DNA from: Escherichia phage Cartapus
DNA: 33,368 bases
Sequence record: NC_070909
Reading direction: 5' to 3' (one strand)
The position numbers and the translations under genes are program-made. The notes under the pieces are model-generated. The model was given only the letters and a program-made list of their open reading frames with translations. It made no database searches and was not told the origin of the DNA. Positions 33 to 26,813 of the stretch are shown one piece after another. Numbering within the stretch: position 1 is the first letter of the stretch; each line of letters begins with the position of its first letter.

Positions 33-51
33 GGCGTGGCGGGGATACGAG
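33..51. other. cos: cos-like cohesive-end sequence (GGCGTGGCGGGGATACGAG)
   Basis: 19-nt GC-rich motif whose first 13 nt match the 186/P2-type cos end as I recall it (GGCG[T/A]GGCGGGGA...). It sits a short distance upstream of portal gene Q, as in P2. Confidence 0.35.
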
Positions 52-20920: not shown

Positions 20921-21402
20921 TGATGGTGCTGGGATTGTACGTGTTTATGCTGCGCACTGTGCCGTATCAGGAACTGCAGTATCAACGCAGCTGGCGACAT
21001 GCGGCAAACAGCCGGGTCAACCGACGTCCGTCCACGCAGTTTCTGGGACCGGACAACGACATGCTGACGCTTTCTGGTGTTCTTATGCCGGAGATAACAG
21101 GCGGCAGGCTGTCGTTGCTGGTACTGGAGCAGATGGCAGAGCAGGGGAAAGCATGGCCCCTGATTGAAGGCAGCGGCACGATTTACGGCATGTATGTGAT
21201 TGAGGGACTGAATCAGACTAAAACGGAGTTTTTCCGCGACGGTATGCCGCGCCGGATTGAGTTCACCCTGTCGCTCAAACGGGTGGATGAATCCCTGTCC
21301 GATATGTTCGGTGATCTCAGTGCGCAACTGAATAATCTGCAGGACACGGCAACGTCTGCCTTAAGCGATATCAGTAAAACGGTGGGAGGGCTGCTGTCGT
21401 GA
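20917..21402 (+). CDS. U: tail protein (P2 gpU-like)
   Basis: 161-aa ORF; its ATG overlaps the T stop (ATGA). Confidence 0.85.
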   Translation: MMMVLGLYVFMLRTVPYQELQYQRSWRHAANSRVNRRPSTQFLGPDNDMLTLSGVLMPEITGGRLSLLVLEQMAEQGKAWPLIEGSGTIYGMYVIEGLNQTKTEFFRDGMPRRIEFTLSLKRVDESLSDMFGDLSAQLNNLQDTATSALSDISKTVGGLLS

Positions 21403-22499
21403 ATTTCAGCTCTGAACTGCTTAACAAAGGCAACAAAACTCCCGCATTCAGCATCAGTATTGAGGGCAGGGATATCACCACTGTGCTGGATAACCGCCTG
21501 ATGAGTTTGACGCTGACGGATAATCGGGGCTTTGAAGCAGACCAGCTTGATCTGGAGCTGGACGACGCCGACGGAAAAATCGTGCTGCCGCGCCGTGGTG
21601 CGGTTATTACGCTGGCGCTGGGCTGGAAGGGGCAGCCGCTTTTCCCGAAAGGGGCATTCACGGTGGACGAGATTGAACACACTGGCGCACCGGACCGCCT
21701 GACTATCCGGGCGCGAAGTGCTGATTTTCGTGAAACGCTGAATACCCGCCGTGAAAAGTCGTGGCACAAGACCACCGTTGGGGAAGTGGTGAAGGAAATA
21801 GCTGCGCGGCACAAACTGAAGATGGCATTGGGTAAAGACCTGTCAGATAAACCCGTGGAACATATAGACCAGACCAATGAGAGTGACGGCAGTTTTCTGA
21901 TGCGACTGGCGCGCCAGTACGGTGCTATTGCGTCGGTGAAAAATGGCAATCTGTTATTCATCCGGCAGGGACAGGGCAAAAGCGCCAGCGGTAAACCACT
22001 GCCGGTGATCACTATCACGCGTAAGGACGGCGACAGTCACCGCTTTACCCTGGCAGATCGCGGAGCCTATACGGGCGTCATTGCCAGCTGGTTGCATACC
22101 CGCGAACCCGCGAAGAAAGAAAGCACCACGGTGAAGCGTAAGCGCAGAACTAAGAAGCAGAAGAAAGAGCCGGAAGCGAAGCAGGGCGATTACCTGGTGG
22201 GGACGGATGAAAACGTGCTGGTACTTAATCGCACTTATGCCAACCGGAGCAACGCCGAACGAGCGGCGAAAATGCAGTGGGAACGCCTGCAACGCGGTGT
22301 TGCGTCATTCTCGCTACAACTGGCGGAAGGTCGGGCAGATCTCTACACGGAAATGCCTGTGAAGGTCAGTGGCTTTAAACAGCCAATAGATGATGCGGAA
22401 TGGACCATTACGACTCTGACACATACCGTCAGCCCGGATAACGGTTTTACGACCAGTATTGAACTTGAAGTGAAAATTGGTGATCTTGAAATGGAGTAA
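21399..22499 (+). CDS. D: tail protein D (P2 gpD-like)
   Basis: 366-aa ORF with a GTG start overlapping the U stop. Last gene of the tail operon before ogr. Confidence 0.85.
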   Translation: MNFSSELLNKGNKTPAFSISIEGRDITTVLDNRLMSLTLTDNRGFEADQLDLELDDADGKIVLPRRGAVITLALGWKGQPLFPKGAFTVDEIEHTGAPDRLTIRARSADFRETLNTRREKSWHKTTVGEVVKEIAARHKLKMALGKDLSDKPVEHIDQTNESDGSFLMRLARQYGAIASVKNGNLLFIRQGQGKSASGKPLPVITITRKDGDSHRFTLADRGAYTGVIASWLHTREPAKKESTTVKRKRRTKKQKKEPEAKQGDYLVGTDENVLVLNRTYANRSNAERAAKMQWERLQRGVASFSLQLAEGRADLYTEMPVKVSGFKQPIDDAEWTITTLTHTVSPDNGFTTSIELEVKIGDLEME

Positions 22500-22567
22500 A
22501 TGGTTCTCAATATTGATATTTTGTGTATCATTGCAATGATTCTGATAGCAAAGGTAGGGATCTGGAT

Positions 22568-22786
22568 ATGATGAATTGTCCAAAGTGTGGTCATGCGGCG
22601 CACACAAGGAGCAGTTTTCAAGTAACAGAAAGCACCAAAGAGCGTTACTGCCAGTGCCAAAATATTAACTGCGGGAGCACTTTTGTTACCCATGAAACAG
22701 TGGTCCGGTTTATTGTGACACCTGCAGTGATTGCCACAGCCCCTCCACATCCATTGCCAGGTGGTCAGGGCCATATGAATTTTTAA
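22568..22786 (+). CDS. ogr: late gene transcriptional activator, Ogr/Delta-type zinc finger
   Basis: Track ORF 22523-22786. The ATG at 22568 gives MMNCPKCGHAAHTRSSFQVTESTKERYCQCQNINCGSTF..., matching the C-x2-C...C-x4-C Ogr zinc finger as recalled. Confidence 0.85.
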   Translation: MMNCPKCGHAAHTRSSFQVTESTKERYCQCQNINCGSTFVTHETVVRFIVTPAVIATAPPHPLPGGQGHMNF

Positions 22787-22793
22787 GAAAGAG

Positions 22794-22817
22794 AACCTGC
22801 TACGGCAGGTTTTTATT
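22794..22817. terminator. hairpin plus T-tract between convergent ogr and the WYL/BRCT gene
   Basis: AACCTGC-TACG-GCAGGTT followed by TTTTATT, 8 nt after the ogr stop. It overlaps the 3-prime end of the minus-strand gene, so it may act in both directions. Confidence 0.6.
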
Positions 22818-23295
22818 CATCTGGGATCTCACCCGTTTCAAGAAAATGTATAAAGCCAGGCTCATCTATGATGATAGTGCCTTTCATCCTGGCTGCCGAT
22901 ACTTTTGATGGGCCTGCATTGTAACCGCAACAGAGCATCTGAAGGTTTTGGGTTACAGATGTTCTTACCGTTAATCCTTGTTCATTCGCCTTATCAACCA
23001 ACCTTTCTTTATCTGCTTTCTTAAATCCGGTGAAACACACATCGAATGTATTTTTTTTCGGACCTGACTGCTTAGTGAGATGTGAGTAGTTTTCGGGGAG
23101 GAATGACGCGCATTCCTGAATGGCTTGTTCTTGTGAATCGTATTGTTTAAGAATGCGGTCTTTTCGGAAGGTTTTTATTCGATCGGTGTTCTTACAAATG
23201 CCCTGTATGTGATTTTCGCTATAACTGATGCTCTGTATTGAGTGAACACCGATACGACCATTTGCATTGATGTAAACAAAGTGAAGTTCTTCCAT
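22813..23295 (-). CDS. small protein with WYL-like N-terminal region and C-terminal BRCT-like domain; function unknown
   Basis: 160-aa ORF, ATG at 23295 with an AAGAGG RBS. C-terminus (DVCFTGF...GLTVRTSVTQNL...GPSK...IIIDEPGFIHFL) resembles the BRCT domain of NAD-dependent ligases. N-terminus (GRIGVHSIQ...IKTFRKDRI) resembles a WYL domain. Both by recalled motifs only. Confidence 0.5.
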   Translation of the reverse strand: MEELHFVYINANGRIGVHSIQSISYSENHIQGICKNTDRIKTFRKDRILKQYDSQEQAIQECASFLPENYSHLTKQSGPKKNTFDVCFTGFKKADKERLVDKANEQGLTVRTSVTQNLQMLCCGYNAGPSKVSAARMKGTIIIDEPGFIHFLETGEIPDE

Positions 23296-23321
23296 GTCAA
23301 ACCTCTTTGCATGATTTCAAG

Positions 23322-23360
23322 ATGGCGACAGGCAAGATGGACGCAAAAGTCTGTCGCCAT
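23322..23360. promoter_or_regulatory. 10-bp perfect inverted repeat with 19-nt spacer (ATGGCGACAG-N19-CTGTCGCCAT) upstream of the WYL/BRCT gene
   Basis: Read directly. Lies between the minus-strand gene start (23295) and attP. Candidate operator or integrase arm-type site. Confidence 0.4.
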
Positions 23361-23376
23361 TTTGCCGCCACTACCT

Positions 23377-23408
23377 AAGAAAAAGGGGCTACGCTTTCAC
23401 GTAACCCC
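23377..23408 (-). terminator. rho-independent terminator on the minus strand immediately after the ssrA-derived core
   Basis: Minus-strand reading gives a 9-bp stem (GGGGUUACG/CGUAGCCCC, one G-U pair), a 6-nt loop and a TTTTTCTT tract, directly downstream of the tmRNA-like 3-prime end. Confidence 0.5.
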
Positions 23409-23418
23409 TTGATTTATT

Positions 23419-23463
23419 TGGTGGAGCTGGCGGGAGTTGAACCCGCGTCCGAAATTCCTACAT
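23419..23463 (-). other. attP: attP core: 45 nt identical to the 3-prime end of ssrA (tmRNA)
   Basis: The reverse complement reads ...ATGTAGGAATTTCGGACGCGGGTTCAACTCCCGCCAGCTCCACCA, the tmRNA T-arm and acceptor end including CCA, as I recall E. coli ssrA. Identity stops abruptly at 23463. Confidence 0.8.
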
Positions 23464-23582
23464 ACCATTTTTACTATAACAAAAACAGTAAATTTCGTTT
23501 GAAAACATATTGTTAATGTTATTTGGTGTTTGTCCGTTTTATAGGTTTTTAATGCTCTGCCGCCAAAATGTCGCCATTACTA

Positions 23583-24788
23583 TCATGGTTTAATATGGGC
23601 ATATACTTGAATTTCATCCATACAAGTTTCGAGTTTATAAAAGTCAGTTAAATTATAGATGTTCAAAATTTCATCATCTATGCTTCCTGTTAGCTCACGA
23701 TTTTTTCTTCTTCGTAGCCTTCTGCTGAGATTCTCTCGATCGGATTGTGCAACTGATTCAGGCACGTACTCAACTGTTTTTAGGACCTGCCAAGATACAG
23801 GCAATGTGAATTTGAAAATTTTCGCTAGATTTGGACAAAATTCATTATTGGCCATCTCCTCGTAACGCACTTTTGGAGGAAGTACCACATTTATTCCTCT
23901 GCTACCTAAGGCATTAGCAGGTAATTTTGTTGAGCGGTAGGCTATACCAACAACATTCTCATTGCTGTTCCGACTGATCCATTGCATCAAAAGATTGGGG
24001 ATAATATATTCTTGTACAAAGGAAGCATTGTCATATTTTTTTAAATAATTGCATGCAATTATCAAAGGCCAAAGTGCTAAATATGAGAGTTTGGTATTGA
24101 AATCATATTTGTTCTTTCTTTTTGACTCTAATATAGATCTCTGTTTATATAAAAAATCAGGTCCTATATTTAGTACCTTTGAGTCATTATTTTTATCGAT
24201 CTTGTAGGCAGATATATATAGCTTATCAAAATCTGGCTTATCCATTTCTCTCCAGCATATATAAAGAGATGTTCCTAAATATAAACAGGGTAGACCAGCA
24301 ACTGAAAATCTCTGTGCTCTAACAAAGTGACGCTGACTGAACGGAATATGAAACATATCTCTTCTTGATGTAAGTGGCGTATCAGATTTTCTAACGCGGA
24401 ATAATGGTTTATCTTCATTACATAAGTCAGAAAGAGGTATGCATATATTTTCAATATGACGAGATATAGTTCGTGGCTCTAGCATACTTTCAAATGAGTC
24501 ATATGCCGACTTAATATCCCCTGATAAAAAACACTCTAAACACGAGACGATTTCTTTCTGCATGATATCTACAGCTCTAAGTCTATTGCGCAAGCGTAAA
24601 CTTAACCTGTTATCATTTTCCTGGATGTAATCTACTAAACAACCCCGGAATTTACTGCATTTTAGAGCGAAGTCATCTATCAAAGTAAGGTTTTTTTCAA
24701 TCTCAATTGGTGGTCGAATACTTGATTTTTTTCTAATAGTGTCAAAAAGATTATTAAGTTCTTCATCGAGTTCTTGTTGAATATGCAT
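23583..24788 (-). CDS. large accessory protein with a RES-domain-like core (possible NAD+-targeting toxin-type fold); function unknown
   Basis: 401-aa AT-rich ORF, 9 nt downstream of the int stop. The central segment ...FRVRKSD...QRFSVAGLPCLYLGTSLYICWRE... parallels the Arg / Tyr-x-x-x-Ser / Glu core of RES toxins (MbcT/ParT type) as recalled. No adjacent antitoxin-like ORF. Confidence 0.5.
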   Translation of the reverse strand: MHIQQELDEELNNLFDTIRKKSSIRPPIEIEKNLTLIDDFALKCSKFRGCLVDYIQENDNRLSLRLRNRLRAVDIMQKEIVSCLECFLSGDIKSAYDSFESMLEPRTISRHIENICIPLSDLCNEDKPLFRVRKSDTPLTSRRDMFHIPFSQRHFVRAQRFSVAGLPCLYLGTSLYICWREMDKPDFDKLYISAYKIDKNNDSKVLNIGPDFLYKQRSILESKRKNKYDFNTKLSYLALWPLIIACNYLKKYDNASFVQEYIIPNLLMQWISRNSNENVVGIAYRSTKLPANALGSRGINVVLPPKVRYEEMANNEFCPNLAKIFKFTLPVSWQVLKTVEYVPESVAQSDRENLSRRLRRRKNRELTGSIDDEILNIYNLTDFYKLETCMDEIQVYAHIKP

Positions 24789-24797
24789 TTTTATTTA

Positions 24798-25814
24798 TCA
24801 CTTTAAGTTAAATAAGGGGTTTTTAGTAACAGCATCTTCAAGATGTTCTGGTGCGAAATGGGCATAGACCATTGTCATTTTTATATCTGAGTGCCCTAAA
24901 ATATCTCTCAATACAAGAATATTTCCGCCATTCATCATAAAGTGACTAGCGAATGTATGGCGCAATACATGCGTGCACTGGCCCTCTGGCAAGTCAATAC
25001 CTGCTCTTTTTACTGCACGCTCAAAAGATTTTCTGCATGGCGTGAATAACTTCCCTCTGTTTTTGGGGAGTTCGTGATACAGATCTTGAGATATTGGTAC
25101 TGTTCTGTTTTTCTTGCCCTTTGTCTTTGTATAAGTAATTCGGTATTTCGATATTTGGTGGCCCTGAAGGTTTTCGGCTTCACTCCACCGTGCGCCGGTA
25201 GCTAAGCATATTTTTGCAATCATTAGTAGGCTCGGGCTTTGAGATTCAGCACATGCAGCCAACAGGCGCTTGATTTCGTCCACGGAAAGAAAAGCCAGCT
25301 CACCTTCGGTAATTTTGAAGGTCGGAAGTCCTGCCAGCGGGTTTGGTGCTGACCAGTGTCCTAGTTTTTTTAATGTACCGAACACCGATGATAGATTGCG
25401 CTGTTCAAGGTTTACCGTGCGGGGCTTAACGGGCGACATAAGCGTGCCATCTTCATTTCGTACTTCACCTTTTAACCGTGCTTCGCGGTATTTCGTAAAG
25501 TCACCGGCTGTTAGTTCTGAGGCGATGGGATCGCCTAGACCATTACAGATAATTCTAAGTTTCGCCATGAGGCGCTTGGGGTCTGCGAGTGTTTGACCAT
25601 ACAGGGAATACCACTGCTCAATTAATTCTGATAGGTGTCGCCGATCTTCCTTTTCCCCCAGCCATGGTTTTTTGTTCACTTCTTCCATTGTGAAGCTTTC
25701 AAAAGCAATGGCTTCGCCTTTCGTAGCAAATTGCTTACGCACGCGCTTGCCATTGCGTCCATTGGGATAGCACTCGCACAACCATTTACCGTTTGGCTGT
25801 TTTCTGACAGTCAT
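24798..25814 (-). CDS. int: tyrosine integrase (phage integrase family)
   Basis: 338 aa. C-terminal ...HVLRHTFASHF...LGHSDIKMTMVYAHF carries the R-H-R-Y catalytic signature. Adjacent to attP and the repressor gene. Confidence 0.9.
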   Translation of the reverse strand: MTVRKQPNGKWLCECYPNGRNGKRVRKQFATKGEAIAFESFTMEEVNKKPWLGEKEDRRHLSELIEQWYSLYGQTLADPKRLMAKLRIICNGLGDPIASELTAGDFTKYREARLKGEVRNEDGTLMSPVKPRTVNLEQRNLSSVFGTLKKLGHWSAPNPLAGLPTFKITEGELAFLSVDEIKRLLAACAESQSPSLLMIAKICLATGARWSEAENLQGHQISKYRITYTKTKGKKNRTVPISQDLYHELPKNRGKLFTPCRKSFERAVKRAGIDLPEGQCTHVLRHTFASHFMMNGGNILVLRDILGHSDIKMTMVYAHFAPEHLEDAVTKNPLFNLK

Positions 25815-25816
25815 GT

Positions 25817-26449
25817 TTAGATACTCTTTATTACTTTGACTGCACGCCCAATAACTTCCACATCATCAGTAGAGCACTCGAAAGACGCTTCATCTTGATT
25901 TACTACAATCTTATTGCCGGGAATCCGCATGATTTTTGCAACAATAATCATTCCATCAATATTGATAAGCCAGAATCCATTGCTGACCTGTTTAATTGAT
26001 TTATCGATGAGATAACAATCAGTAGGGGTTTCTAAGAACATCGATTCTTCATAATCTGCAGGTAATATGCTGTGGTCTAGGAAAATCTCTTCATCAATAC
26101 TGAGTTGTCCATTCTCCAGGGTTCCTTTAGGAATAGCTGGAGTTATGAGTTTGGATAACGGTTTAATTGCTTGTTTGTTCTCATTATGAGAACTTTTCTC
26201 AGGCTCAGCTCCTCCTTTCATGCTTCCCTGTCCTGTAGCTAACCAAAGCAACGAAACACCGGTTTCTAGTGCGCACTGAATTATCCAGTCAGCAGGAAAG
26301 CTGTCACGTAACACTCTGTTTGCCATAGTGCTTTTTGAGACATTCAGGTGCTCGCTTAATGCCTGCTTAGTTGTGAATCCATAAGCCTCAAGCAGCCTTT
26401 CAATAGCTGCCTTACCTCCCGTATCGGAACCCATTCTGATGTTTAACAT
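25817..26449 (-). CDS. cI: CI-like immunity repressor (N-terminal HTH)
   Basis: 210-aa ORF upstream of and co-oriented with int, divergent from the apl/cII operon. HTH-like region TTKQALSEHLNVSKSTMANRV. GGAG RBS. Confidence 0.7.
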   Translation of the reverse strand: MLNIRMGSDTGGKAAIERLLEAYGFTTKQALSEHLNVSKSTMANRVLRDSFPADWIIQCALETGVSLLWLATGQGSMKGGAEPEKSSHNENKQAIKPLSKLITPAIPKGTLENGQLSIDEEIFLDHSILPADYEESMFLETPTDCYLIDKSIKQVSNGFWLINIDGMIIVAKIMRIPGNKIVVNQDEASFECSTDDVEVIGRAVKVIKSI

Positions 26450-26570: not shown

Positions 26571-26813
26571 ATGAGTACTGATATTTCAATTCGTGTACCA
26601 AAAGAGATGGCTACGCCTGCAGAGTTCGCAGAGTGGGAGGGTATTTCCCGCGGCTCTGTTTACCAAAAAATTCACCATGGTCAACTTGCTAAGTACATGG
26701 TCAAGAAAGAAAAAAACAAAGGTCGCGTAAGCCTGCGTTATCTGATGTACAAAACCGATCAGGTCCGTGAATCCCTCGGTCATTCCAACTTCCGAGTCAT
26801 TGTTGGTAAGTAA
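26571..26813 (+). CDS. Apl/Cox-like small HTH protein (excisionase/transcription switch)
   Basis: 80-aa first gene of the rightward operon, with HTH-like FAEWEGISRGSVYQKIHHGQL. Coordinates taken from the ORF track; my own base count put the start codon one position earlier. Confidence 0.6.
   Translation: MSTDISIRVPKEMATPAEFAEWEGISRGSVYQKIHHGQLAKYMVKKEKNKGRVSLRYLMYKTDQVRESLGHSNFRVIVGK

What the first reader, a model, noticed from the sequence alone, without database searches (positions are those of the whole stretch)
23296..23582. attP architecture: ssrA 3-prime core, phage-supplied terminator and repeated TGTCGCCAT motifs
A 45-nt stretch (23419-23463, minus strand) matches the 3-prime end of tmRNA (ssrA) including CCA, so integration at ssrA would rebuild the gene with the phage-supplied 3-prime end. 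Immediately after it on the minus strand is a hairpin plus T-tract, so the phage would also supply the ssrA terminator. The 9-mer TGTCGCCAT occurs three times around the core: inverted at 23322-23330, direct at 23352-23360 and direct at 23569-23577. These are candidate integrase arm-type sites, or an operator for the adjacent gene. The core sits mid-window flanked by phage genes on both sides, which shows the sequence is in phage order, not integrated-prophage order.
Basis: partly seen in the sequence, partly recalled or inferred. Interest (0 to 1): 0.45.

Follow-up and report, generated by a model that had tools for sequence, protein, structure and literature searches.

The report
Phage attachment site in tmRNA gene
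This is the ordinary, already described kind of attachment site by which a Fels-2/186-like temperate phage (Cartapus of E. coli LF82) inserts into the 3' end of the tmRNA gene; the repeated motif is the known binding-site consensus for this class of integrase.

Summary
The window is phage Cartapus, prophage 4 of E. coli LF82, 33,368 bp, written in virion order. Bases 23419-23463 (minus strand) are the last 45 nt of ssrA. In the LF82 chromosome both halves of the window meet host DNA exactly at this core, so integration at ssrA is shown directly.

A 12-bp hairpin plus U-tract follows the CCA end after an 8-nt spacer. Across 33 distinct relatives it is fully paired in the ssrA-sense RNA, with compensatory changes.

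TGTCGCCAT is part of a larger pattern. TGYCGCCA-N3-TGYCGCCA tandem pairs, 11 bp start to start, sit on both sides of the core (23352/23363 and 23558/23569), plus one inverted copy (23322-23330). This matches the published 186-type integrase arm-site consensus (tgccGCCActt; YAYCGCCAYTY) and the phage 186 layout of three sites on one side and two on the other.

The int-side pair lies exactly 95 nt from the core in 83 of 90 distinct relatives. The motif type follows the integrase N-terminal domain type, not the neighbouring genes. The inverted copy is lineage-specific and its role is uncertain.

Verdict: observation confirmed, interpretation supported, kind already known. Integrase binding itself was not tested.

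The parts
23419..23463 (-). attP core: the last 45 nt of ssrA (tmRNA), covering the T-arm, the 3' strand of the acceptor stem and CCA. Identity with the host attB is 23418-23463.
   Evidence: Rfam tmRNA partial match; 45/45 identical to E. coli ssrA at both LF82 junctions.
23464..23470 (+). ACCATTT, the first phage-specific bases next to the core. Candidate extension of a core-type integrase half-site (inferred).
   Evidence: Invariant in all 9 aligned relatives, whereas the next roughly 90 nt diverge.
23377..23410 (-). Intrinsic terminator supplied by the phage: a 12-bp hairpin (23383-23410) plus a U-tract. It ends ssrA in the lysogen and probably ends the cI-int transcript in the unintegrated phage.
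   Evidence: Fold and terminator scan. In 33 distinct relatives, 100% of cells are paired in the ssrA-sense RNA, and 2 pairs show compensatory changes. The equivalent element is annotated in phage 186.
23402..23414 (-). Candidate IHF site AATCAAGGGGTTA, a perfect match to WATCAANNNNTTR.
   Evidence: Consensus scan. The sequences of the relatives, as read, differ from it by one base. Phage 186 has an IHF footprint at the same relative position. Inference only.
23352..23373 (+). Terminator-side tandem pair of integrase arm-type sites: TGTCGCCATTT and TGCCGCCACTA, 11 bp start to start.
   Evidence: Invariant in 8 relatives. Lies at a fixed 47 nt (46 nt in 3) from the CCA end in all 54 distinct IMG/VR sequences that carry the ssrA core. 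Matches the 186-type consensus.
23322..23330 (-). Third, inverted copy TGTCGCCAT. A possible third arm-type site, specific to this lineage.
   Evidence: Phage 186 also has an inverted third site. Only 6 of 49 distinct relatives have it; 9 have a direct third site and 34 have none. Phage 500465-1 carries a mismatch here.
23337..23345 (-). Degenerate copy TGCGTCCAT, 15 bp from the inverted copy. Of doubtful significance.
   Evidence: Direct repeat CAAGATGG x2 (family D12). It has 2 mismatches to TGYCGCCA and is polymorphic in relatives.
23558..23579 (+). int-side tandem pair of integrase arm-type sites: TGCCGCCAAAA and TGTCGCCATTA, 11 bp start to start.
   Evidence: 83 of 90 distinct IMG/VR arms have the strict pair, always at offset 95 from the core; the other 7 listed arms have near-matches at the same place, as read from their sequences.
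23519..23557 (-). Candidate Apl/Cox boxes: T/A-rich blocks phased at 10-11 bp (TAAAAAC, TAAAACG, CAAACAC on the minus strand).
   Evidence: The GTTTTA and TTTTA blocks are invariant in 9 relatives. A similar CTAAAACGAA/CTAACACGCA sequence lies upstream of apl. Phage 186 has 5 Apl sites at the same relative position. Inference only.
24798..25814 (-). int: a 186/Fels-2-type tyrosine integrase, 338 aa.
   Evidence: Pfam Int_N plus Phage_integrase. 89-95% identical to Fels-2 Int by segment, with N-terminal W/E/Y discriminator residues as in phage 186.
26571..26813 (+). apl: a Cox-like excisionase and repressor, the directionality factor.
   Evidence: phrog_575 and phrog_6912, excisionase families.
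23583..24788 (-). 401-aa cargo ORF inserted between the int-side arm sites and int. Not part of the recombination machinery.
   Evidence: phrog_7835, unknown function. 47% identical to SopEPhi orfY. Absent from this position in Fels-2, SEN8 and MLG42.
22813..23295 (-). 160-aa BRCT-only gene (CARTA_32 / LF82_783). In the lysogen it is the first gene after ssrA and the phage terminator.
   Evidence: Weak BRCT match; phrog_2561. LF82 coordinates 2736109-2736591.

Best explanation
The 287-bp intergenic region 23296-23582 is the attP site of the Fels-2/186-type temperate phage Cartapus.

Shown:
- The core is the last 45 nt of the host tmRNA gene.
- In the LF82 lysogen, recombination within it has split the phage. 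The host 5' part of ssrA now continues into the phage copy of the 3' end and the phage hairpin/U-tract terminator. The displaced host copy of the 3' end sits at the int end of the prophage.

Inferred from homology and conservation:
- The integrase (24798-25814) is a heterobivalent tyrosine recombinase.
- Its N-terminal domain binds the arm-type sites TGYCGCCA(Y)(T)(T). These are arranged as 11-bp tandem pairs 47 nt beyond the CCA end on the terminator side and 95 nt from the core on the int side. An extra inverted copy at 23322-23330 is specific to this lineage.
- Its core-binding and catalytic domains act on the ssrA sequence.
- DNA bending lets one integrase bridge arm and core to build the intasome that captures attB. 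IHF would supply the bending; there is one consensus site at 23402-23414.
- Excision would need the Cox-like Apl protein (26571-26813) bound to phased boxes between the core and the int-side pair.
- By analogy with phage 186, where the crossover is in the anticodon loop at the int-proximal end of the identity block, strand exchange probably lies near 23445-23463. This was not determined.
For: - Core: Rfam; exact junctions in LF82 at smpB-ssrA and at glaH.
- Identity of the phage: (Cartapus boundaries, 33,368 bp, 'closely similar to Fels2').
- Terminator.
- Arm sites in the literature: (Nilsson et al. [quoted passage not shown] (GenBank record of phage 186) annotates consensus YAYCGCCAYTY, 3 sites to the left and 2 to the right, a terminator, IHF footprints and Apl sites in the same order.
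- Matching layout in phage 186.
- Enrichment in the window.
- Conservation of sequence and spacing although the flanks diverge: 9 relatives; 83 of 90 distinct arms at offset 95, while the intervening 94 nt are a median 72% identical; fixed 47 nt.
- The motif type follows the integrase N-domain type. The window and 186 have W/E/Y with CGCCA-type sites. Wphi has Y/D/R with TGTGGACA pairs. ESSI-2 has the same ssrA core and terminator but D/R residues and GTGGAC pairs.
- The same pair occurs with other cores, such as tRNA-Ile.
- The motif is absent from the cI-apl switch.
Against: - No binding or recombination experiment exists for this phage. Even in the phage 186 record the Int arm sites are labelled 'predicted'.
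- The inverted copy is not conserved.
- The IHF and Apl sites are only consensus or periodicity matches.
- The crossover position is not determined.
- The terminator's activity is inferred from sequence alone.
Confidence: 0.9

Rival explanations
1. The TGTCGCCAT copies are operators for the adjacent genes. The inverted repeat 23318-23331 / 23351-23364 would control the promoter of the BRCT gene, and the copy at 23569 would act on the 401-aa ORF.
For: The 14-nt inverted repeat, 93% complementary, lies 27-70 nt upstream of the BRCT start codon (pair I3). That gene is the most expressed Cartapus gene in the lysogen, so some regulatory signal must lie nearby.
Against: - No sigma-70-like promoter is found at 23296-23380.
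- The terminator-side pair is invariant in Fels-2, SopEPhi, RE-2010 and SEN8, which lack the BRCT gene and have the ogr terminator there instead.
- The int-side pair is invariant whether the next gene is int, orfY or another ORF, and it lies at the 3' end of that gene.
- The inverted copy that makes the palindrome is missing in most relatives.
Confidence: 0.05
2. The repeats bind another phage regulator (CI, Apl/Cox or Ogr) rather than the integrase.
For: Phage 186 Apl does bind attP, and CI has distal sites. Phased direct repeats are typical of Cox/Apl proteins.
Against: - TGYCGCCA is absent from the cI-apl switch region, where CI and Apl must bind.
- In phage 186 the Apl and IHF footprints are annotated separately from the CGCCA repeats.
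- The motif type switches together with the integrase N-terminal residues (Wphi and ESSI-2).
Confidence: 0.03
3. The inverted copy at 23322-23330 is not a functional arm site. It would be a lineage-specific by-product of the insertion of the BRCT gene, and only the two tandem pairs matter.
For: 34 of 49 distinct ssrA-type arms have no third site, and 9 have a direct one at a different spacing. The close relatives 500465-1 and 503440 carry AGGGCGACA.
Against: Phage 186 also has one inverted site beyond its left tandem pair. An exact 9-mer within 21 nt of the pair is unlikely by chance: there are only 4 exact copies in 33 kb.
Confidence: 0.4

Closest known systems
attP of Salmonella phages Fels-2, SopEPhi and RE-2010 (Felsduovirus), which integrate in ssrA
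   Same: Same 45-nt ssrA core. Same terminator hairpin. Same tandem pairs at the same distances. Integrase 89-95% identical by segment to Fels-2 Int, and the int region 99.5% identical in DNA to RE-2010.
   Different: The Fels-2 group has a third, direct site 19 nt from the pair, next to the ogr terminator. The window instead has a BRCT gene there and an inverted third copy. The window and SopEPhi carry a roughly 400-aa cargo ORF between the arm sites and int, which Fels-2 lacks.
attP of coliphage 186 (Eganvirus), as annotated in NC_001317
   Same: Same order of parts: ogr-like gene, arm sites (1 inverted plus 2 tandem), terminator, IHF site, 3' fragment of an RNA gene on the int strand, Apl sites, tandem arm sites, a small ORF, then int. 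Same arm consensus (Y)CGCCA(Y) at 11-bp spacing. Same W/E/Y residues in the Int N-domain.
   Different: The 186 core is the 3' part of tRNA-Ile, not ssrA. The core-binding segment of Int is only 40% identical. 186 has three int-side sites, and its spacings to the core differ.
attP of P2 and Wphi (Peduovirus)
   Same: Same overall design: a tandem pair of arm sites 11 bp apart on each side of the core, with int adjacent.
   Different: The arm motif is TGTGGACA, not TGYCGCCA. The Int N-domain has Y/D/R. The targets are not tRNA or tmRNA genes.
CP4-57 and other islands at ssrA
   Same: They use the 3' end of ssrA as attB and supply a replacement 3' end.
   Different: The integrase families are different. 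CP4-57 excision leaves a defective ssrA lacking U357. The copy left behind by this phage in LF82 is intact.

Membership tests
186/Fels-2-type attP (heterobivalent tyrosine integrase site of Peduoviridae) | An adjacent tyrosine integrase with an arm-binding N-terminal domain of the 186 type | tested here: met
   Pfam Int_N (9.4e-29) and Phage_integrase (5.6e-24). N-terminal sequence GKWLCECYPNG carries the W/E/Y discriminators named in PMC3448106.
186/Fels-2-type attP (heterobivalent tyrosine integrase site of Peduoviridae) | A core identical to the 3' end of a host tRNA or tmRNA gene, so that the gene is rebuilt on integration | tested here: met
   45/45 nt identical to ssrA. The LF82 junctions are exact.
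186/Fels-2-type attP (heterobivalent tyrosine integrase site of Peduoviridae) | At least two direct repeats matching tgccGCCActt / YAYCGCCAYTY on each side of the core | tested here: met
   23352/23363 and 23558/23569, 11 bp apart. Conserved in relatives.
186/Fels-2-type attP (heterobivalent tyrosine integrase site of Peduoviridae) | Lysogens carry the phage between two junctions at the predicted attB | tested here: met
   E. coli LF82, prophage 500465-1 and the published Cartapus boundaries.
186/Fels-2-type attP (heterobivalent tyrosine integrase site of Peduoviridae) | The integrase physically binds the arm repeats, and they are required for recombination | not testable with these tools
   Needs EMSA or footprinting and mutant attP recombination assays.
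186/Fels-2-type attP (heterobivalent tyrosine integrase site of Peduoviridae) | Accessory sites: IHF sites, and Apl/Cox boxes in the int-side arm with an Apl/Cox gene in the phage | tested here: inconclusive
   The Cox-like excisionase gene is present. There is one perfect IHF consensus at 23402-23414, and phased T/A blocks at 23519-23557. No binding data exist.
Intrinsic (Rho-independent) terminator | A G+C-rich hairpin immediately followed by a U-tract on the transcribed strand | tested here: met
   12-bp stem, GAAA loop, then TTTTTCTT. 100% pairing in 33 distinct relatives, with compensatory changes and strand-specific G.U pairs.
Intrinsic (Rho-independent) terminator | Transcripts actually end there | not testable with these tools
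   Needs Term-seq or 3' RACE in the LF82 lysogen.
Complete tmRNA gene | A full tRNA-like domain plus a tag reading frame | tested here: not met
   ARAGORN finds none in the window. The Rfam score is 34.5, below the gathering score of 47, and only the 3' end aligns. It is a fragment, as expected for attP.
P2-type arm sites | Direct repeats matching tgTGGaCa | tested here: not met
   No GTGGA(C/T) in 23296-23582, whereas Wphi has four.

The most novel reading that the evidence does not exclude
The phage-supplied ssrA terminator may be deliberately leaky, so that the BRCT-only gene just downstream (CARTA_32) is expressed in lysogens by read-through from the very strongly transcribed ssrA. In that case the integrase arm sites between terminator and gene (23322-23373) would double as a roadblock or regulatory element, coupling expression of a phage cargo gene to the host tmRNA promoter. 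The supporting facts are that this gene is the most expressed Cartapus gene in LF82 (about 15-fold above background), that it is co-oriented with ssrA, and that no promoter-like site was found upstream of it.
Probability: 0.2. Interest if true: 0.35.

Novelty: already known. Interest (0 to 1): 0.1.

Why it matters
It matters little beyond correct annotation. It fixes the attP anatomy of phage Cartapus: the core, the terminator, five arm-type sites, and candidate IHF and Apl sites. It also shows that the window is a published LF82 prophage.

The comparison across IMG/VR contigs (90 distinct int-side arms and 88 distinct terminator-side sequences) gives a cleaner picture of the 186-type arm sites. 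They are an invariant 11-bp tandem pair at fixed distances of 95 nt and 47 nt from the ssrA core. That could help automatic attP and prophage-boundary calling for Peduoviridae.

Tried and rejected
- Operator hypothesis. Rejected because the neighbouring genes vary while the pairs do not, and no promoter-like site was found.
- Host origin of the terminator. RE-2010's 84-bp terminal repeat first suggested that the Salmonella host's own ssrA terminator is identical to the phage hairpin. The host-side copy carries the 'gttatatt' variant, which is linked to P2-type arm repeats like those of ESSI-2. It is therefore more likely a leftover from an earlier element than a native terminator.
- Locating the crossover from natural polymorphisms in the displaced host copies. 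Variants at core positions 1-8 and 13-26 are retained at the int-proximal junction, which is compatible with a crossover nearer the int side. It is not conclusive, because the matching phage cores are unknown.
- Apl boxes. Only two 7-mers are shared between the int-side arm and the cI-apl switch, which is too weak to call.
- Pelludat et al. 2003 (PMC181011) is not held in the library, and the supplement of PMC3448106 with the repeat alignments is not held.
- The 401-aa ORF has no match in Pfam (at E up to 0.001), NCBIfam, PADLOC or PDB sequences. At a relaxed threshold there is only a sub-threshold RES-domain hit (E 0.23).

Full report
**What the window is.** The genes around the finding are those of a P2/186-like phage:
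- gpD (21399-22499)
- an Ogr/Delta zinc-finger activator (22523-22786)
- a 160-aa BRCT-only ORF (22813-23295, minus strand)
- the 287-bp intergenic region of the finding
- a 401-aa unknown ORF (23583-24788, minus)
- a tyrosine integrase with Int_N and catalytic domains (24798-25814, minus)
- a 186-type CI repressor (25817-26449, minus)

The next ORF (26571-26813) is a Cox-like excisionase.

A cos-like sequence, GGCGTGGCGGGGATACGAG, lies at 33-51. Its first 12 nt match the phage 186 cohesive end.

The E. coli LF82 chromosome contains window 22700-23463 exactly, next to smpB and ssrA. About 33 kb away it contains window 23419-24900 exactly, next to glaH.

The LF82 paper gives prophage Cartapus the boundaries 2,735,987-2,769,354 and a size of 33,368 bp, which is the window length. 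It calls the phage 'closely similar to Fels2' (PMC9928086). The window is therefore Cartapus written in phage order.

**The core.** Window 23419-23463 on the minus strand is the last 45 nt of ssrA, including CCA. Rfam aligns it to the 3' end of the tmRNA model (E 6.5e-12) but below the gathering score. ARAGORN finds no gene, as expected for a fragment.

Comparing the two LF82 junctions gives a 46-nt identity block, 23418-23463.

Integration of Fels-2-like phages in ssrA has been known since SopEPhi and Fels-2 (cited in PMC3448106, and PMC10107115).

**The terminator.** After an 8-nt spacer past the CCA, the minus strand forms a 12-bp hairpin (23410->23383) with a GAAA loop, followed by UUUUUCUU.

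In 33 distinct sequences of this element from IMG/VR contigs, all 396 base-pair cells are standard pairs in the ssrA-sense RNA. Two pairs show double compensatory changes. Several positions alternate between G.U and A-U or G-C, and these would be C.A mismatches in the opposite strand. The constraint is therefore on the ssrA-sense transcript.

In the lysogen this hairpin directly follows the rebuilt ssrA. On the host side of the LF82 int-proximal junction, the first terminator-like hairpin in the ssrA direction lies about 130-150 nt beyond the CCA.

The phage 186 record annotates the equivalent hairpin as 'predicted terminator of lysogenic operon'. Before integration it probably also stops cI-int transcripts. 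Termination activity itself is inferred.

**The repeats.** The three TGTCGCCAT copies are real, but they are part of a larger pattern.

TGYCGCCA occurs as tandem pairs 11 bp apart, start to start, at 23352/23363 and at 23558/23569, both on the plus strand. There is also an inverted copy at 23322-23330. The full pair pattern occurs nowhere else in the window without mismatches. Five of the 11 TGYCGCCA copies in the window lie in the 287-bp region, where 0.05 are expected.

This is the known arm-type site of 186-type integrases:
- Nilsson et al. [quoted passage not shown]
- The GenBank record of phage 186 annotates 'predicted Int arm-type recognition sequences; consensus YAYCGCCAYTY; 3 sites to left of attP and 2 sites to right'.
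- The 186 sequence shows one inverted site plus a tandem pair on the ogr side and tandem sites on the int side. This is the arrangement seen in the window.

**Comparative support.**
- *Named relatives.* In nine relatives the int-side pair is invariant except for the Y position, while the 94 nt between it and the core diverge. These are RE-2010, Fels-2, SEN8, SopEPhi, Yersinia MLG42, two Klebsiella phages, an E. coli tandem lysogen and the window.
- *int-side arm in IMG/VR.* A scan for the core-arm junction gave 118 loci with 90 distinct arms. Of these, 83 have the strict pair, always starting 95 nt from the end of the ssrA identity. The other 7 listed arms show near-matches at the same place. 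The intervening sequence is a median 72% identical.
- *Terminator-side arm in IMG/VR.* The pair lies 47 nt (51 sequences) or 46 nt (3 sequences) from the CCA end in all 54 distinct sequences with the ssrA core. The same 17-mer also occurs next to other cores, such as a 186-like tRNA-Ile fragment.

**Motif type follows integrase type.**
- The window integrase has the W/E/Y residues proposed to discriminate the 186 type from the P2 type.
- Wphi has Y/D/R and TGTGGACA pairs at the same 11-bp spacing.
- Cronobacter phage ESSI-2 has the same ssrA core and the same terminator. However, it has GTGGAC-type pairs and D/R at two of the three discriminator positions.

TGYCGCCA is absent from the cI-apl switch, which argues against CI or Apl as the binding protein. 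The genes next to the pairs differ among relatives, which argues against an operator role. No promoter-like site was found.

**The inverted copy.** Of 49 distinct ssrA-type terminator-side arms:
- 34 have no third exact site within 80 nt
- 9 have a direct one 19-20 nt away (the Fels-2 type)
- 6 have the inverted one 21 nt away (the window type)

The close E. coli relatives 500465-1 and 503440 carry a mismatch in it. It may be a third arm site, as in phage 186, or it may have no function.

**Other candidate parts (all inferred).**
- ACCATTT (23464-23470), next to the core, is invariant in the relatives.
- A perfect IHF consensus lies at 23402-23414 on the minus strand, where phage 186 has an IHF footprint.
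- Phased T/A-rich blocks at 23519-23557 lie where phage 186 has five Apl sites.
- The crossover point was not determined. By analogy with phage 186 it should lie near the int-proximal end of the identity block.

**Verdict.** The feature is a textbook 186/Fels-2-type attP in a phage that has already been published, so both novelty and interest are low. What remains untested is biochemical: integrase binding, the crossover position and terminator activity.

Noticed in passing
window 22813-23295 (-): The 160-aa BRCT-only gene next to the phage terminator is LF82_783/CARTA_32. It is the most highly expressed Cartapus gene in the LF82 lysogen (about 107 normalised counts against a background of 6.9). 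It is co-oriented with ssrA, and no sigma-70-like promoter was found upstream, so read-through from ssrA is possible.
   Followed up: partly
window 23583-24788 (-): A 401-aa ORF of unknown function (phrog_7835) sits between the arm sites and int. It is 47% identical to SopEPhi orfY. It has a motif resembling the RES-domain signature (my own recollection) and only a sub-threshold Pfam RES hit (E 0.23). In relatives this slot is empty or holds unrelated ORFs, so it looks like a variable cargo position.
   Followed up: partly
L014 (Cronobacter phage ESSI-2) 2018-2914: ESSI-2 has the same ssrA core and the same terminator hairpin as the window. Its arm repeats are of the P2 type (GTGGAC tandem pairs) and its Int N-domain reads W/D/R, a natural hybrid. 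A 186-type TGCCGCC pair in inverted orientation also lies further out on its terminator side.
   Followed up: partly
L001 1-84 and L017 1135-1218 (Salmonella phage RE-2010): The 84-bp terminal repeat of RE-2010 covers the ssrA core plus the terminator hairpin. The host-side copy carries a 'gttatatt' variant, which in an IMG/VR locus is linked to P2-type arm repeats. The phage therefore probably integrated next to the remnant of an earlier ssrA element.
   Followed up: partly
IMG/VR loci L020-L139, int-proximal junctions: In 17 of 115 junctions the displaced host copy of the ssrA 3' end is defective, either through a one-base deletion in the acceptor strand or through loss of the acceptor/CCA end. 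In those hosts, excision of the prophage would leave a damaged tmRNA gene, as described for CP4-57.
   Followed up: no
L005 4096-4349 (E. coli 503440, NZ_CP025881.1): An attP-like junction lies inside a chromosome, with a terminator-side arm, the core and an int-side arm contiguous (92% identical to the window) between two sets of phage genes. This suggests two related prophages in tandem at ssrA. The core here lacks one G.
   Followed up: no
window 23455-23462 and L011 1032-1039: The 8-mer TTCCTACA lies at the int-proximal edge of the core in both the window and phage 186, where it immediately follows the predicted crossover. The two cores are otherwise unrelated. It could be a shared core-type half-site or a chance match.
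   Followed up: no
window 33-51: A cos-like sequence, GGCGTGGCGGGGATACGAG. Its first 12 nt are identical to the phage 186 cohesive end. The window starts 32 nt upstream of it.
   Followed up: partly
L004 2853-2874 (-): On the host side of the LF82 int-proximal junction, the first terminator-like hairpin in the ssrA direction lies about 130-150 nt beyond the CCA. The phage-supplied terminator starts after only 8 nt. The tmRNA precursor of lysogens and non-lysogens should therefore differ in its 3' trailer.
   Followed up: no
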